DNA from: Cyanobacteria bacterium auto_48_18
GTDB taxonomy: Bacteria > Cyanobacteriota > Vampirovibrionia > Obscuribacterales > Obscuribacteraceae
DNA: 64,000 bases
Reading direction: 5' to 3'
Assembly: GCA_036170915.1 (NCBI GenBank)
Contig: JAVHQC010000022.1
Span: 191,420 to 255,419, forward strand
Position numbers: made by a program. Positions 1,514 through 7,500 of this stretch are shown here, one piece after another (the first letter of the stretch is position 1; every line of letters starts with the position of its first letter).

Positions 1514-4500
1514 CAAGTAAGTAAGCCGTGGTGAAAAAATACCTCCGGAGGTATTTTTTTTGAATTACTTAGTCGGGGCGATAGTGACTTTTATGGCTTG
1601 TGGACGATAAATATCACCATTGGTCAAACGCGAGAATTGGCTGCTGTTTGTGCAATAGGTCAGCACTATTTCCCCCTTACTCTTCGTGTATTGAGCATGG
1701 GCTTTAGCACTATAGTAAAATAGACCTGGTTGATTTTTGATCTGATAGATAGACACTCTGTCTGACCATGGCCCTTCTGGTTTAGCTGCTTGACGCATCA
1801 TAATTTCTTGTTTGTCCGGGGCAAAGTAGAATGCAAAAAAGCCTGGTAGTCCGCGAATTTTTGTCACCGACATTTCAGAAGCTCCGTCTTCAAAAAGCAT
1901 TTCAGGAAATTCCAAAGTCGGCCGCCACTGATCGCACCACCACTCAGGTTTGCTCAGTTTTTGACTCTCTGCCTTAGCTAATGAAAAGCGGGCCAGGCAA
2001 ATTGGGTGCTTGTATTTATTGAAACTGACACCACCATTGGTGCAGTAAATATAAGCGTATTTATCATCAGTGGAGCAGGCAGCTGCGTATAGTAAACGTT
2101 TGGAGCTGTTTTGAAGTATCTCTGTTTGCCAGCGCCAGCGGTCCGGCGAATCTTGTGGATTCAAGACAGTAATCAAATGATCTGTGCGTAAATCAAACTG
2201 AAATGGAGCGGCCAATTTACGGTCAGTGCGCACCACGTGCAGGTACAGGTACAACTTGCCACCAGCCATAAAGCCGTGACCCGGCCAGTAATAATCTAGA
2301 GGGTCAAGACATTGAAAAAAACCTTGTTCGTTGATCTTGCCTGATTTGCTTTTTTGCTGGCTCCAGTAATAAGTAAATTTACCGGGAGTGTCGCCGGTTC
2401 TTTCTTCGATGGCCAAAGCATTGTGCACCATGGTGGAGTCAACTCGTTTGTTGGCCTGCAACAAACCAATAAATGAGTCGCCAAAGAGCCACAGGGTGCG
2501 TTTCGGGCCCAGCTCAATGCTGTAGGCGGCATCTCCACCGGTAAAGTCTTTTTTAGCGCTTGAAGCCTTCTGCATAAACGCATTTGTCAGGGGTGCATAT
2601 GGTTTAGCGGAGGTAGCTTTAAACTGGCAGGGTGGTCGAGTTTTCTTGTTGGTAAAACCGAAATCATTGGCGCTGGCGTGCTCTGTTACTAATGCGTTGA
2701 CGAGCAGCAAAAGACAGAAAGCAAAGACAGCCTGACAGGCTGCCTTTGCTTGGTTGTGTTTGAGAATTGCAATCAACAGAGTGCGCCTAACTGGCCGGAT
2801 TGAAATTGTCTGGTGGCTCCTTTTGCTCAAGATTTAAATCAAGAGTTTTGTTATTTTGGGGGTTTCCGCCTCCAACACCTCCGCCGGCACCCTGCCCTAA
2901 TTGGGTCAATCCGGGTAAGAATTCTAGATTGACTATGGGCGCGGTACCAACTAACTTGCGTTCAGACAAGGTATCAAGCTCTTTATTGATTTGCTCGTCG
3001 GTTTTACCCGGTTCGAGAATGTGCACCAGGTCTTTATAGAACAAGGTCTCCTTTTCTACCAGTGCGTGGGCGATAAGGTCGAGTTCTTTGCGTTTTTCTT
3101 TAAGCAAGTTACGCACATTCTCCAGACAACCATCCACAACTTCTTTGATTTCCAATTCAAGTTCGCGCTCGGTTGTGCCTGAAGCAGACCGCCCCTGCAC
3201 ACCGAAGGCCGTTCCCGTATTCAACGCGAATGAGCCCATACCCCAATCTTTGATCATACGGCGAGCAATATTACCGACATTAACCAAATCTTGAGAGACA
3301 CCGCTGGTGGTGGTGTCCATATACAGACTTTCCGCCACATAACCTCCCAGTGATACTTCTATATCTACCAGGTAATCTTGCTTGTTGGCCCCTGACACGA
3401 AGCGATCTTCCTTTTCCACCGACCACATATAACCAAGTGCTTGTCCGGTTGGCACGATTGTCACAACCTGGACGCGCTCTTTGCGATTGCGGAAGTAAGA
3501 AACAATAGTGTGACCGGCTTCGTGATAAGCGGTCTCAAACAACTCTTTCACGCCGATATGCTGACTGCGGCTCATGCCGAAGCTCACTCTTTGAATAGCG
3601 CGAATCATGTCTGAATGTGTAATTTCGATTCGCCCTTCGCGAATGGCAAATAATCCTGCTTCGTTAACGATATTAGCAAGATCGGCACCAGCCTGCAGGA
3701 AAGTCATGCGGGCAATTTCCATCACTTGCACGCTTGGCGAAACTTTGAATTTCTCCAGATATTTTTTCAGAATGGCTTCGCGACCTTCAAGATTCGGCAG
3801 CGGCACATCAATGTGTCTATCGAACCTGCCTGGCCTTAGGAGGGCCGGATCAAGCATATGCATGCTGTTGGTGGCACCAATGGTGAGAATGCTGTGTTTG
3901 CCGAAACCATCCAACTCAACCAATAGTGAATTGAGCGTTTTATTGGAATCTTGCACAGCACCGCCACCACGCTCGACACCACGCGTGCTGCCAATGGCAT
4001 CAATTTCGTCAATAAAGACGATGCCTGGTTTGCCGCTCCGTCTGGCTCGTTCGTAGACAGCTTTAACGCGGTTTGACCCTACGCCTGCCCACATTGATTG
4101 GAAGTCGGCGCCGGAGAGCGAGTAGAAGGCCACTCCAGCTTCATTAGCAATGGCTTTTGCCAACATTGTCTTACCGGTTCCGGGAGGGCCAACCAACAGA
4201 ATTCCTTTGGTTGGTTTAAGGCCAAATTTTTCTACTGCTTTCATATTCTTGAGCAAAGCAACAACTTCGGCTGCTTCAGCTTTGGCTTCTTCGACTCCTT
4301 TAAGGTCGTCTAGTTTGACTTCTAAATCAGGTACACGCGACAAATTCATGCCGCCTACATTTAATTTGTGTCCGGCTGTAATCATCACTTTGTCGATAGC
4401 TTCTTCAAGTTCCTCTTCAGTAACCTGGCTCTTTCCTTTGCGCACGGCCAGGATGGCCGCTTCGTTACAAGCCGCTGAAATATCGGCACCAGAAAAATTG

Positions 4501-7500
4501 AATGAGAGCTTTCCTAATTTAGCTAAGTCAGGAACTGAAGCGAGGCTGATCTTTTTCAAATATTTGTCGAAGATCAATCCGCGTGAATGCGCGTCTGGAA
4601 TACCAATGAAGACTTTGCGATCGAACCTTCCTGACCGGTAGAAGGCCGGGTCAAAATCATCTTGCATATTGGTGGCGCCAATGGTGATGACGTTGCTGCG
4701 GCCCAGACCATCCAGTTCAACTAAAAGCTGATTCAGTGCTCCGCTTCTTGCTGTACCAAGTGGATCTGAACTACCGTCAATGTTTCTTGGTGAGCCAATG
4801 GCGTCAATTTCATCAATGAAAACAATGGCTGCAGGGCTTTGTCTAGCCTGAGTATAAAGAGCCCTGATGCGGGCCGCACCGGAACCAATATTATTCAATT
4901 GACTGGCTGATAGGCCGTAGAAAGGCACTCCTGCCTCATTGGCAATGGCTTTCGCCAGCATAGATTTACCTACGCCCGGTGGCCCCACCATGAGTACACC
5001 TTTGGGAATTTTTGCACCGATTTTGCGAAGTTCGTCGCCGCGTCTGAGAAAATCGACAATCTCAACTACTTCTTGCTTGATGTCATCGATACCGATGATG
5101 TCGGTGAATTTAATTGAGGGATCGTGACTGACCAGTTCCACACCAGAATTGGTCAATGATCTTTCTAGGCCCACTGAGACTCGATCTAAAGCTTGCAAGA
5201 TCATGTCAGTTGTGACTTTATTAGGGTTTCCTGGGCGTCTGGAAATCAGCGCTGCTTCATTTACCACATTGGCAATTTCAGCCGGTGAGTAATTAGCGGT
5301 GAGCATTGTAATCTGGTCATAGTCAATTTCTGAGTCGGCCGCAACTTTACCCAGATAATACCTAAACAGTTCGGTTCTTTCTTCAGGCGTCGGCATCTGG
5401 AAGTAAATGCGCCTGTCCATGCGGCCCGCACGCATAAGCGCTGGGTCTAGCATGGAATCATTATTGGTGGCACCGATAACCATGATTTTAGAACCGCTGA
5501 AGCCGTCCATTTCTGTAAGCAGACAGTTGAGCGTCATGTTCATATCTGAAACGCCACCAAACCCCTGGTCTTGTGAGCGTTTTGATCCCATTGACTCAAT
5601 TTCGTCAATAAATAAGATGGCACGGTCGTGTTGCTTTAACTTGCGGAAAAGGGTCTTCAGTTTAAGCACACCAAGGCCCATGAAAATTCCGGCCACGCCG
5701 CCGCCATCAATGACGTAGAATGGCACACCAGCTTCGTTTGCAATGGCTCTGGCGAAGAGCGTTTTACCAACGCCGGGTGGTCCAATGAAAATCATTCCTT
5801 TCGGAACCTGCGCACCAGAATCCTGATAATGTTGAGACTTTTGAATGATGTCGATAACTTCGCGAATTTCTTGCTTCGCCTTGTCGTTGCCGGTCATTTC
5901 TTCAAGAGTTTTAGGAGCATTAGGGCTTATTGGCGAATCTTTGAAGAGCCACTTAAACCAGCGCTTCCAAATACTTTTCGGTGCCTTGCTGTCTGCTCGC
6001 GGAGGTAGAGGAAAAATTACAGAAAGCATCAAGTAGAACTGAATGATGATGAAGAAGGCACCGTAAAGAACGGCCACCACCAACGTTATCACCGAGTATT
6101 TGAGAAATGCCGGAAGAGATGCAAACGGATTCCAGTATTGGGCCGTGAGAATTAAGCCAACAGTCCAGAGTATAAATAGGGTCCAACGAGCCCAATTTTT
6201 CATGATTCTTCCCTACTCCTATTCGTTGCCGAAACCATCGGCATCTCTATTTTCATTTTTGTTGTTAACATCAACCATGTATCTATATTTGCGAAACGCT
6301 CCAGTCACCTTAACTTCTGGAATCAGGCCTTCACGCCTCTTCCAAACGCCTAATGAAGTGGCTTTGACGTCAGCAAGTCCTACAGGAATTGGGCTCGCAG
6401 GCCCCTGGTAGTTGACGAAGGTGGCCGACATAATCATGGCTACAAAGAAAGCAATGGCGTACTTAAGCATGGCTTTATCCTTAATCCAACGGCATGTCTA
6501 GTTCGCGTTTGATCCACTTTGTCAGGTCAGGCTGCGACATTTCACCTTTTACGCCATTAATAGCTTTGCCTTCTTTGAAGAGCACAAAACCAGGCACACC
6601 CTGTACATCGTAGCGCTCTACCAATGCCTGGTTGGTGTCGACATTCACTTTGACAACACGCACGTAACCTTGACTGTCAGTAGCCAGTTTGCTAACGATC
6701 GGTTTCATGGTTAGACAATGGGCATCGTTTTCTTTGTAAAACTCCACCATCACCGGTGTGTTGGAGTCGAGCACTTCGCCCTGAAAAGTGCCGGCATTAA
6801 CTTCCGTGACCGCGTCTGGTGCCGGTGCATTGGCAAATGTCCAACCGGTTGGTGACACCAGCGGATTGCCGCCCTCGTTGCCTGCCAGCACACAGCTAAC
6901 AAGCAGCGCGATGATAAATCCAATGACCGCTTCCTTCATTCCTAGCCTCGTTTCTTGCCTAGACTCGTTGCTTCCTCAATGAGGTTGCCCTTTAGACCGC
7001 AGTCTACATATATATTGGCATAGCCTTAGAAGTTTTACACATTCCCATTACGGAATCACAATAAGTGATTACCCTGATCTTTGCTTGAAAAGCTTGAGCG
7101 ATATCGCTCAAGCTTTTCCGCAGACTTTATCTGTAAAGCAAAACCGGATGAGCCATAGCTCACCCGGTCAAGATTTCTAGAGCTAAGCCTTGAGCTTATT
7201 TGCCTCTTTCTGGAATGGCCACGGCGTCGATGATGTGAATCACACCATTGTCGCAAGGCACATCGGCTGTTGTGACGATACAACCGTCTACAACAACTGT
7301 TCCTGATTTGTTGACAATCATCAAAGACTCACCTTGCAAGGTGGCCAAAGAGCTTTTGTTGGCCAGGTCAGCAGCAGTGTATTTGCCTTTGACGACGTGA
7401 TACTTGAGCACATCTTTAAGACGCTTAGGGTCATTCATCAAACCTTCACGGTTTTCTTTGTTCATTTTGGCCCAACCAGCATTGCTTGGAGCAAATACTG

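What a model noticed while it worked through the whole genome (the two positions that open the first line are those of the whole stretch)
2787..6203. FtsH-type membrane protease with three tandem AAA+ modules
g02162 (1138 aa) is an FtsH-like protease with an unusual build: two N-terminal transmembrane helices, three complete AAA+ ATPase modules in a row (Pfam AAA at 137-269, 403-534, 668-802), then an M41 zinc-peptidase domain with an intact HEAGH site. All three modules keep Walker A (GPPGxGK[TS]), Walker B (FIDEI[ED]) and the arginine-rich second region of homology. The first and third keep an aromatic pore loop (IFMG, MWAG); the middle one does not (NIGSG). Canonical FtsH (here g02615, 662 aa) has one AAA+ module. 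The three-module architecture is conserved at 60-66% identity over the full length in other genera of Obscuribacterales and was not found in other Vampirovibrionia orders.
Evidence so far: pfam.tsv rows and the sequence. Swiss-Prot FtsH hits align only to residues ~625-1086. The modules are 40-43% identical to each other and 39-47% to the AAA+ module of g02615. Homolog search with residues 1-640 (the part that ordinary FtsH lacks): the best 120 clusters listed are almost all 1100-1190 aa and 64-91% identical over >=97% of that part. Their source names, where given, are Obscuribacterales/Melainabacteria/'Cyanobacteria bacterium' MAGs, with two labelled Oculatellaceae/Drouetiella. search_genomes (E<=1e-200): full-length single open frames of 1120-1141 aa in 5 of 8 other Obscuribacterales genomes sampled, partial or split matches in 2 more, and none in 37 genomes of 8 other Vampi [...]
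(Added by a program. Inside this text positions count along the whole contig: contig position 191,420 is position 1 of the stretch shown here. "Call 12" and the like, gene names such as g00115 and contig names such as C1 are that model's own, and its searches are not shown. The text may have been shortened before it was handed on; [...] marks where a part breaks off. The agent that wrote the report below was given it as the finding of a first reader that could run no searches.)

Follow-up and report, generated by a model that had tools for sequence, protein, structure and literature searches.

The report
FtsH protease with three ATPase modules
This is a real, strongly conserved membrane protease gene of the FtsH type that carries three complete ATP-driven motor modules instead of one, a build that also turns up in a few other bacterial groups but that I did not find described in the papers searched.

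Summary
Window 2787-6203 (- strand) is one open frame of 1138 aa: a short two-helix membrane anchor, three complete classical AAA modules (95-355, 361-619, 626-885) and an M41 zinc peptidase with HEAGH. Walker A, Walker B, sensor-1 Asn and both SRH arginines are kept in all three modules in 36 of 36 family members. dN/dS is 0.004-0.03 in each module. The gene is a near-universal single-copy gene of its order (96 of 101 genomes). It was not found in 118 genomes of other families of the class, nor in 300 other genomes of the phylum. It always follows a small unknown membrane-protein gene, inside a conserved fasciclin / thioredoxin-like / orf83 / ftsH3x / DUF4185 row.

The build is not unique. 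Among the 150 best of 1.84 billion representatives I found 7 other clusters with 3 AAA + M41, one with 4 and about 36 with 2. Named examples are Muribaculaceae, Sodaliphilus, Thermoleophilaceae and Gloeobacter Glr2649. Most arose by separate internal duplications.

Best reading: a hexamer with three stacked ATPase rings above the protease ring. Only the protease-proximal ring keeps a conserved aromatic pore loop. The stacking is inferred: the model's M2-M3 pair fits p97 D1-D2, and the M1-M2 arrangement is unresolved. Seven full-text searches found no paper on such FtsH forms. Verdict: a new variant of a known kind.

The parts
2787..6203 (-). ftsH3x gene: 1138 aa plus stop codon
   Evidence: ORF and translation. 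Pfam gives AAA x3 and Peptidase_M41. Full-length single frames are found in most of 96 genomes of the order.
5922..6203 (-). Residues 1-94: membrane anchor. Helix 2-24, conserved WNPF loop, helix 38-63, then IFPLPPR and a basic Trp/Lys/Phe-rich stretch. There is no periplasmic domain.
   Evidence: Hydropathy and model helices. Invariant W24-N25-P26-F27 and I63-F64-P65-L66-P67-P68-R69 in 19 sequences. PF06480 is missing from the precomputed Pfam lists of family members but present for the P0005/P0167/P0188 families. The N-in/C-in topology is inferred from the positive-inside rule.
5139..5921 (-). AAA module 1 (residues 95-355): Walker A GPPGVGKT, Walker B ILFIDEIE, GATNN, RAGRMDR, pore loop IFMG
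   Evidence: dN/dS 0.030 and 0.010 in the two unsaturated pairs.
4347..5123 (-). AAA module 2 (residues 361-619): Walker A GPPGVGKS, Walker B IVFIDEID, GATNM, RSGRFDR. The pore loop is shortened and non-aromatic (NI--GSG).
   Evidence: dN/dS 0.007 and 0.004.
3549..4328 (-). AAA module 3 (residues 626-885): Walker A GPPGTGKT, Walker B IVFIDEID, GATNS, RPGRFDR, pore loop MWAG (Trp conserved across the family)
   Evidence: Together with M41 it superposes on FtsH 3kds_F: Z 34.6, rmsd 3.3 A, 421 residues.
3009..3548 (-). M41 zinc-peptidase domain (residues 886-1065) with HEAGH at 894-898 and invariant D972
   Evidence: Pfam PF01434 at 890-1061. Invariant H894, E895, H898 and D972 in 27 sequences. 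That D972 is the third zinc ligand is recalled from FtsH structures and was not tested.
2790..3008 (-). C-terminal tail (residues 1066-1138): Gly/Asn-rich, poorly conserved, pLDDT below 50
   Evidence: Column identity 0.49; pLDDT.
6219..6470 (-). orf83 (P0160): small protein with an N-terminal hydrophobic segment and no Pfam family. It ends 15 nt before the ftsH3x start.
   Evidence: A homologous small ORF lies 15-73 nt upstream of ftsH3x in 29 of 29 loci.
6481..6939 (-). Thioredoxin-fold protein (152 aa) with a signal/lipobox-like N-terminus and no CxxC motif; first gene of the tight trxL-orf83-ftsH3x row
   Evidence: Pfam Thioredoxin E 2.6e-21. Found in 29 of 29 loci. The gap to orf83 is 10 nt. 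The lipobox reading is my inference from the sequence LVSC.
7196..7741 (-). Fasciclin-domain protein, conserved upstream neighbour
   Evidence: Pfam E 3.4e-35; tblastn hits in 28 of 29 loci.
1565..2830 (-). DUF4185 protein, conserved downstream neighbour. The listed TTG start overlaps the ftsH3x end by 44 nt, so the start is not settled.
   Evidence: Pfam E 5e-19; tblastn hits in 23 of 29 loci.

Best explanation
The gene encodes a membrane-anchored, ATP-dependent zinc protease of the FtsH lineage. Its unfoldase part has been tripled, and all three ATPase modules are catalytically competent.

I think it assembles like FtsH, as a hexamer held by the M41 ring. The three modules would form three coaxial hexameric rings between the membrane and the protease chamber, giving 18 ATP sites and four rings in all. 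The modules would stack the way D1 sits on D2 in p97/Cdc48.

Substrate would enter at the membrane-proximal M1 ring and be pulled mainly by M3. M3 is the only ring with a conserved aromatic pore loop, and it feeds the peptidase. M1 and M2 hydrolyse ATP but have degenerate pore loops. They probably act as assembly, gating or gripping tiers, as the D1 ring does in p97.

Shown: the architecture, the intact catalytic motifs, the purifying selection, the distribution and the gene neighbourhood. Inferred: the hexamer, the stacking, the division of labour between rings and the substrates.
For: - **Architecture and motifs:**
- **Motif conservation:** Walker A Lys, Walker B DE and both SRH Arg are kept in all three modules, and sensor-1 Asn in the variants listed, in 36 of 36 family members. 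Trp-[Ala/Val]-Gly is kept only in M3.
- **Selection:** dN/dS in the two pairs with unsaturated dS is 0.030 and 0.010 (M1), 0.007 and 0.004 (M2), 0.005 and 0.011 (M3), 0.032 and 0.033 (M41). Column identity is 0.80, 0.79 and 0.81 for M1-M3 against 0.69 for M41.
- **Distribution:** single-copy, mostly full-length frames in 96 of 101 genomes of the order.
- **Fit to FtsH:** in the full-length AlphaFold2 model (pLDDT 73.1, pTM 0.49), residues 627-1064 superpose on FtsH 3kds_F with Z 34.6, rmsd 3.3 A, 421 of 426 residues.
- **Fit to p97:** residues 359-875 (M2+M3) superpose as one body on p97/VCP D1-D2, for example 9mpq_D (Z 27.0, rmsd 4.5 A, 489 residues) and 9p07_C (rmsd 4.3 A, 483 residues).
- **Linkers:** the stretches between the last lid helix and the next module's conserved start are about 20-25 residues. 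That is about the length of the p97 D1-D2 linker, a figure I recall rather than tested.
Against: - Nothing here measures oligomer state, ATPase activity or proteolysis.
- The pTM of 0.49 means the domain arrangement in the model is not confident. AlphaFold may simply reproduce p97.
- A separate model of M1+M2 (pLDDT 74.8, pTM 0.47, linker pLDDT about 31) did not stack like p97. Each module fits known AAA domains at 1.5-2.5 A. The pair fits p97 D1-D2 only at about 14.7-15 A. The position of M1 is therefore open.
- The entry ring, M1, lacks a conserved aromatic pore loop. That is odd for the first ring to meet substrate.
- No substrate is known. The conserved neighbours are predicted to be exported proteins and need not be functionally linked.
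Confidence: 0.6

Rival explanations
1. M3 and M41 form an ordinary FtsH hexamer. M1 and M2 do not form coaxial rings. They hang as flexible ATPase domains between the membrane and the M3 ring, for example as built-in chaperone or adaptor modules or as a spacer that sets the distance to the membrane.
For: The M1-M2 arrangement is unresolved and not p97-like in the two-module model. The inter-module linkers have pLDDT below 50. The pore loops of M1 and M2 are degenerate.
Against: Both SRH arginines act in trans across ring interfaces in classical AAA proteins (recalled). They are kept in M1 and M2 in 36 of 36 members, as are sensor-1 and Walker B. dN/dS in M1 and M2 is as low as in M3. M2 packs on M3 as D1 packs on D2 in the full-length model.
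Confidence: 0.2
2. The three modules lie side by side in one plane. Two chains would then make one six-module ring, a concatenated ring as in dynein or midasin, carrying only two peptidase domains.
For: 3 x 2 = 6. The arginine fingers would also be satisfied in such a ring. Linkers of 20-25 residues might span from one lid to the next large domain (my estimate, not computed).
Against: In the model, M2 and M3 superpose on the stacked D1-D2 pair of p97 at 4.3-4.5 A, not side by side. M3+M41 fits hexameric FtsH at 3.3 A, and the M41 domain is conserved. FtsH proteolysis is known to take place in a closed six-fold chamber (recalled). Related lineages carry 2 or 4 modules, which do not divide into a six-module ring as neatly.
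Confidence: 0.1
3. The extra modules are an assembly or gene-calling artefact, or decaying duplicates without function.
For: A few genomes show split or interrupted copies: G006 in two adjacent frames, G018 with 5 stops, G044 with 1 stop.
Against: Uninterrupted frames of about 1100-1180 aa occur in most of the 96 genomes with a match, on independent assemblies that include single-contig genomes. Motifs are intact in 36 of 36 members. dN/dS is 0.004-0.03.
Confidence: 0.01
4. It is the tandem FtsH-type ATPase component of a MoxR-vWA 'FtsH ternary' conflict system (Kaur et al. 2020).
For: That paper describes a component with two FtsH-type AAA+ domains (PMC7159879, passages read).
Against: There the N-terminal copy has lost its P-loop and Walker B. 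Here all copies are intact. No MoxR or vWA gene was found among the ORFs scanned in window 452-9901. The paper says these systems are rare in cyanobacteria.
Confidence: 0.02

Closest known systems
Canonical FtsH (E. coli FtsH, Thermotoga/Thermus FtsH; mitochondrial AFG3L2 and YME1)
   Same: N-terminal membrane anchor, a classical-clade AAA module with SRH, and a C-terminal M41 peptidase with HExxH. Residues 627-1064 fit 3kds_F at 3.3 A (Z 34.6), and also fit AFG3L2 6nyy_B and YME1 6az0. TIGR01241 scores above its cut-off.
   Different: Three AAA modules instead of one. No periplasmic FtsH_ext domain; the loop between the helices is only about 10-14 residues. All FtsH chains among the 60 best PDB sequence matches have one AAA module and at most 644 residues.
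Type II AAA proteins p97/VCP/Cdc48 (two stacked rings)
   Same: Tandem classical AAA modules. The model's M2+M3 pair superposes on D1-D2 at 4.3-4.5 A over about 485 residues. As in p97, the upper module lacks an aromatic pore loop and the lower one reads M-W-x-G (the p97 loop sequence is recalled).
   Different: No N domain. TIGR01243 scores 543 against a cut-off of 802.65. It is membrane-anchored, has a third module and has a covalently attached peptidase.
Other tandem-AAA FtsH proteins in public data
   Same: AAA x n followed by M41 with HExxH. Examples:
- 3 modules: Muribaculaceae (P0005/P0191 cluster), Thermoleophilaceae (P0008; MGI9082343.1) and the unnamed P0004 family.
- 4 modules: Sodaliphilus pleomorphus WP_423828368.1 (P0167 cluster, 171 members) and P0003.
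- 2 modules: Gloeobacter violaceus Glr2649 (P0199), Solirubrobacteraceae (P0221) and a second paralog in some Obscuribacterales (P0025).
   Different: Most of these keep the canonical FtsH_ext N-terminus and aromatic pore loops in nearly all modules. Their modules group with each other on the tree, which points to independent, more recent duplications. Only the P0004 and Glr2649 families share the short anchor with this family, and they fall in its clade only with weak support (0.32). M3 of this family is sister to M3 of the P0004 family (support 0.93). Whether the triplication itself is shared is unresolved.
Ycf2/Orf2971-FtsHi chloroplast import motor
   Same: FtsH-derived AAA proteins. Chlamydomonas Orf2971 is reported to have two AAA+ ATPase domains (PMC9421593, passages read). 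Chains of 8xku, 8xks and 8xqw match M3+M41 with Z 26.5-30.
   Different: That motor is a hetero-oligomer with an inactive peptidase, found in plastids and acting in import. Here there is one chain, an intact HEAGH and three active modules.
Tandem FtsH-type ATPase of MoxR-vWA 'FtsH ternary systems' (Kaur et al. 2020, eLife)
   Same: Two FtsH-type AAA+ domains in one protein (PMC7159879, passages read).
   Different: Its N-terminal copy is inactive and it is linked to MoxR and vWA genes. Neither applies here.

Membership tests
FtsH family (TIGR01241 / MEROPS M41) | Profile score above the curated cut-off | tested here: met
   TIGR01241 scores 982.7 bits against a cut-off of 600. The score sums three stretches; the best one covers 627-1058. 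PF01434 scores 141.1 bits against 29.9.
FtsH family (TIGR01241 / MEROPS M41) | HExxH zinc site and a conserved downstream Asp in the M41 domain | tested here: met
   HEAGH at 894. H894, E895, H898 and D972 are invariant in 27 sequences. The ligand role of D972 is recalled, not tested.
FtsH family (TIGR01241 / MEROPS M41) | Classical AAA module with Walker A, Walker B, sensor-1 and SRH arginines directly before M41 | tested here: met
   M3 at 626-885.
FtsH family (TIGR01241 / MEROPS M41) | One AAA module per chain | tested here: not met
   Three full modules.
FtsH family (TIGR01241 / MEROPS M41) | Two transmembrane helices flanking a periplasmic domain of about 70 aa (FtsH_ext, PF06480) | tested here: not met
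   There are two hydrophobic helices, but the loop between them is only about 10-14 residues. PF06480 is not in the precomputed Pfam lists of family members. It is also not among the 25 families shown of the 53 found for P0001.
FtsH family (TIGR01241 / MEROPS M41) | Homohexamer with ATP-dependent proteolysis | not testable with these tools
   No oligomer prediction of this size was possible, and there is no experiment.
Type II AAA (Cdc48/p97, TIGR01243) | Profile score above cut-off and an N-terminal double-psi-barrel N domain | tested here: not met
   TIGR01243 scores 543 against a cut-off of 802.65. The N-terminus is a membrane anchor.
Type II AAA (Cdc48/p97, TIGR01243) | Two consecutive AAA modules stacked as D1 over D2 | tested here: inconclusive
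   In the model, M2+M3 fit D1-D2 at 4.3-4.5 A. M1+M2 fit only at about 15 A. These are models with pTM 0.47-0.49.
MoxR-vWA FtsH ternary system component (Kaur et al. 2020) | Inactive N-terminal FtsH-type AAA copy and linked MoxR and vWA genes | tested here: not met
   All copies have intact P-loop and Walker B motifs. The neighbours are thioredoxin-like, fasciclin, DUF4185, TPR-matrixin and histidine-kinase genes.

The most novel reading that the evidence does not exclude
This gene is the best-conserved example of an overlooked class, multi-tier FtsH proteases with 2 to 4 stacked ATPase rings in one chain, which arose repeatedly in bacteria. In the Obscuribacterales form the hexamer would be a four-ring machine with 18 ATP sites. 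Only the ring next to the protease would thread substrate. The two upper rings would be ATP-driven gates or grips, and the strictly conserved membrane hairpin (WNPF, IFPLPPR) together with the always-adjacent small protein orf83 would select envelope substrates.
Probability: 0.4. Interest if true: 0.75.

Novelty: new variant of a known kind. Interest (0 to 1): 0.6.

Why it matters
FtsH is described in the literature as a single-ring unfoldase fused to a protease (my recollection of the field). Two-ring AAA machines such as p97, ClpA, ClpB and NSF are a separate, much-studied class. As far as I know, no machine with three stacked rings has been studied.

A chain with three intact ATPase modules and a peptidase would give a natural system for asking what extra rings add: grip, processivity, gating, or reach from the membrane. 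It has been kept under strong purifying selection across a whole bacterial order.

Related builds occur in cultured organisms: Gloeobacter violaceus with 2 modules and Sodaliphilus pleomorphus with 4. That makes the question open to experiment without having to culture Obscuribacterales. It also shows that module number in FtsH is evolutionarily labile.

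Tried and rejected
- **Complex prediction.** I tested the membrane anchor (residues 1-95, alignment A4) against orf83 (alignment A3). 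The job gave no verdict: score 0.00 against a mark of 0.32, and the controls were not run. This is no evidence either way.
- **RNA runs.** No RNA holder was listed for window 2787-6470, so nothing can be said on expression.
- **Trees.** I used FastTree LG+gamma instead, so supports are SH-like only.
- **Positional orthology.** I compared modules of this family with those of the P0004 family by BLAST. M2 matches M2 best (239 against 219 bits). M1 matches M1 and M2 equally (200 and 203). M3 matches M2 and M3 equally (250 and 248). It is therefore unresolved whether the triplication is shared.
- **Naming the P0004 family.** The one genome-contig scan found no close relative of P0004 among species representatives. 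The best matches, at 42-45% identity, are contigs of this family, one of them labelled Drouetiella.
- **Selection estimates.** dN/dS for more distant pairs failed because dS was saturated.
- **Earlier findings.** The look-up returned nothing for this place.
- **Literature.** Seven full-text searches found no paper on FtsH with two or more active AAA modules plus M41. 'glr2649' matched 0 papers. Only listings were seen, except for the three papers named in the full report.

Full report
**1. The observation**

Window 2787..6203 on the - strand is a single ATG-started open frame of 1138 aa. A GGAG-type ribosome-binding site sits a few bases upstream. The first 40 residues are nearly identical in 29 orthologous loci, which fixes the start.

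Pfam finds PF00004 AAA in three stretches (E 5e-111), AAA_lid_3 in three stretches and Peptidase_M41 at 890-1061 (E 5e-41). NCBIfam FtsH_fam scores 982.7 bits against a cut-off of 600, with its best stretch at 627-1058. The CDC48 model stays under its cut-off, 543 against 802.65.

| Feature | Position or sequence |
|---|---|
| Walker A | 141, 407, 672 |
| Walker B | 196, 460, 728 |
| SRH R.GR.D | 258, 523, 790 |
| Zinc site | HEAGH at 894 |
| Pore loops | IFMG (M1), NI--GSG with a two-residue gap (M2), MWAG (M3) |

A module HMM places the three modules at 95-355, 361-619 and 626-885. In my alignment the modules are 36-42% identical to each other. They are 36-47% identical to the AAA module of the genome's 662-aa canonical FtsH. 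The genome is 86% complete and has only these two M41 genes.

**2. Is it a working gene?**

I compared 36 family members: 19 sequences of alignment A1 and 17 clusters. Walker A Lys, Walker B DE and both SRH arginines are kept in all three modules, and the sensor-1 Asn is kept in every variant the call listed. HExxH is also kept.

Column identity is 0.80, 0.79 and 0.81 for M1, M2 and M3. It is 0.69 for M41 and 0.74 for the membrane anchor.

Two sequence pairs had unsaturated synonymous divergence:

| Region | dN/dS, pair 1 | dN/dS, pair 2 |
|---|---|---|
| M1 | 0.030 | 0.010 |
| M2 | 0.007 | 0.004 |
| M3 | 0.005 | 0.011 |
| M41 | 0.032 | 0.033 |

More distant pairs were saturated. The extra modules are therefore as constrained as the canonical part.

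The pore loops behave differently. Only M3 keeps a conserved aromatic residue (W-[AV]-G). M1 is often LIMG, and M2 is variable and shortened in this genus.

**3. Distribution**

| Sample | Genomes with a match | Threshold |
|---|---|---|
| Same order | 96 of 101 (34 of 35 genera; families 92/97 and 3/3) | E<=1e-150 |
| Same order, high-quality genomes only | 38 of 39 | E<=1e-150 |
| Other families of the class (nine) | 0 of 118 | E<=1e-100 |
| Other genomes of the phylum | 0 of 300 | E<=1e-115 |

- Matches in the order are mostly single uninterrupted frames of about 1100-1180 aa at 60-99% identity.
- The five genomes without a match are 79-92% complete.
- A few copies are cut by contig ends, split (G006) or interrupted by stops (G018, G044).
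- In the phylum search only two candidates per genome were scored.

**4. Gene neighbourhood**

On the same strand the order is fasciclin (7196-7741), thioredoxin-like protein (6481-6939), orf83 (6219-6470), ftsH3x, then DUF4185 (1565-2830). The gaps inside trxL-orf83-ftsH3x are 10 and 15 nt.

By tblastn over 29 orthologous loci with 1.5-kb flanks:

- The thioredoxin-like gene is present in 29.
- The fasciclin gene is present in 28.
- DUF4185 is present in 23.

A direct ORF scan finds an orf83-like small gene (70-105 aa, N-terminal hydrophobic segment) 15-73 nt upstream of ftsH3x in 29 of 29 loci. orf83 matches no Pfam family.

The thioredoxin-like protein has no CxxC motif and has an LVSC lipobox-like signal (my reading of the sequence). 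The membrane anchor of ftsH3x is unusually conserved, with invariant WNPF in the short outer loop and IFPLPPR after helix 2. This suggests the anchor does more than anchor, but that is an inference.

**5. The build is not unique**

A phmmer search of 1.84 billion cluster representatives found 106,040 proteins at E<=0.001. I counted motifs and modules among the best 150:

| Modules before M41 | Clusters other than this family |
|---|---|
| 4 | 1 (P0003) |
| 3 | 7 (P0004, P0005, P0007, P0008, P0019, P0038, P0091) |
| 2 | about 36 |

Proteins with 2-6 AAA modules and no M41 also appear in the list. In P0019 and P0038 the first module has lost its Walker motifs, and in P0091 it is partly degenerate.

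Source names where available:

- Thermoleophilaceae, 3 modules (MGI9082343.1).
- Muribaculaceae, 3 modules.
- Sodaliphilus pleomorphus WP_423828368.1, 4 modules, in a cluster of 171 members.
- Solirubrobacteraceae, 2 modules.
- Gloeobacter violaceus Glr2649, 2 modules, 785 aa.
- A second two-module paralog in some Obscuribacterales (P0025 family), seen in G031 and G021.

**6. Evolution of the modules**

On FastTree LG+gamma trees of 202 and 98 modules, each of this family's three modules is monophyletic (support 0.999-1.0).

Its modules fall together with those of the unnamed P0004 family (3 modules) and the Glr2649 family (2 modules). All three families lack a periplasmic domain. That grouping is weakly supported (0.32). 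It joins a P0003/P0007/P0031/P0009 group with support 0.87, apart from the bulk of canonical FtsH.

M3 of this family is sister to M3 of the P0004 family (0.93), and both read DFQSMW at the pore loop. Whether M1 and M2 are positionally orthologous is unresolved.

In most other lineages the modules of one protein cluster with each other. That points to independent duplications.

In one other family of the phylum (f26, 5 of 10 genomes) there are single-module relatives of 505-581 aa with a short hydrophobic N-terminus. They are 50-53% identical by BLASTP (53-55% in the genome search) to Glr2649 M2+M41 and 44% to M3+M41 of this protein. A 1, 2, 3-module series is plausible but not shown.

**7. 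How it probably works**

The full-length AlphaFold2 model has pLDDT 73.1 and pTM 0.49 (27-row alignment).

- Residues 627-1064 fit FtsH 3kds_F with Z 34.6 and rmsd 3.3 A over 421 of 426 residues. They also fit AFG3L2, YME1 and FtsHi chains.
- Residues 359-875 (M2+M3) fit p97/VCP D1-D2 as one body. Examples are 9mpq_D (Z 27.0, rmsd 4.5 A, 489 residues) and 9p07_C (4.3 A, 483 residues). Foldseek likewise ranks p97/Cdc48 chains first.

This supports M2 stacked on M3, with the peptidase on the other face. That the two lie on opposite faces is my inference, because no coordinates were available.

A second model of M1+M2 alone (pLDDT 74.8, pTM 0.47) did not give a p97-like pair. Single modules fit at 1.5-2.5 A, but the pair fits only at about 14.7-15 A. 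M1's place is therefore unresolved.

Together with the conserved trans-acting arginines in all modules, I favour a hexamer with three coaxial rings (confidence 0.6). M3 would be the threading ring. M1 and M2 would be ATP-driven auxiliary tiers, like D1 of p97.

The rivals are:

- Flexible, non-ring M1 and M2 on an ordinary M3-M41 hexamer (0.2).
- A planar six-module ring made by a dimer (0.1).
- An artefact or decaying duplicates (0.01, refuted).
- A MoxR-vWA FtsH ternary-system component (0.02; motifs and neighbours do not fit).

**8. What is known**

No chain with more than one AAA module plus M41 is among the 60 best PDB sequence matches.

Seven full-text searches listed no paper on FtsH with several active AAA modules and M41. 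'glr2649' matched no paper.

I read passages of three papers:

- PMC9421593: Chlamydomonas Orf2971 has two AAA+ ATPase domains.
- bioRxiv 10.1101/2020.07.04.188128: not relevant.
- PMC7159879: 'FtsH ternary systems' contain a protein with two FtsH-type AAA+ domains, the first of them inactive.

For all other papers I saw only listings. Subscription journals are not covered. Public annotations call these proteins 'FtsH' or 'AAA family ATPase'.

**9. Verdict**

This is a real, functional-looking, order-wide FtsH paralog with three active ATPase modules. It is a new variant of a known kind. It is one lineage of a wider set of tandem-AAA FtsH proteins that I did not find described in the papers searched. 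Interest 0.6.

Noticed in passing
window 6219-6470 (-); L004-L032: orf83 is a small protein (70-105 aa) with an N-terminal hydrophobic segment and no Pfam family. It lies directly upstream of ftsH3x in 29 of 29 loci. Recurring motifs include P.G[VI], G.[IV]PE[IV] and NRD.D.
   Followed up: partly
window 6481-6939 (-): A thioredoxin-fold protein with a lipobox-like LVSC signal and no CxxC motif (a single Cys in AHCLTM). It is conserved next to the gene in 29 of 29 loci.
   Followed up: partly
L041 (G031:C29:16500-21500) and L042 (G021:C35:10000-15000): Some genomes of the order carry a second tandem-AAA FtsH. It has two AAA modules plus M41 and a long N-terminal region with a low-complexity Ser/Thr/Asn stretch (frames of 1064 and 1115 aa). 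It is 63% and 49% identical to P0025, which is named Melainabacteria / Cyanobacteria bacterium SZAS LIN-5. It is absent from the window's own genome.
   Followed up: partly
proteins P0015, P0027, P0034, P0037, P0042, P0043: Proteins of 1400-2100 aa with 5 or 6 consecutive classical AAA modules and no M41 domain appear among the best matches. Their source organisms are unknown. Six modules in one chain would suit a single-chain ring.
   Followed up: no
L044-L048 (family f26 of the phylum): Single-module FtsH-like proteins of 505-581 aa have a short hydrophobic N-terminus and no periplasmic domain. They are the closest single-module relatives of the Glr2649 / ftsH3x clade.
   Followed up: partly
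window 1-366 (+): An open frame running off the window start encodes tandem heptad-like repeats, VDTTKVP six or more times.
   Followed up: no
window 452-1492 (+): A secreted-looking protein combines TPR repeats with a matrixin (Peptidase_M10) domain that has HEVGHSLGLGH.
   Followed up: no
L034 (DATNPY010000002.1): A contig carrying a member of this family is labelled Drouetiella sp., a photosynthetic cyanobacterium. Given the distribution found here, a binning or labelling error seems more likely than true presence. I did not test this.
   Followed up: no
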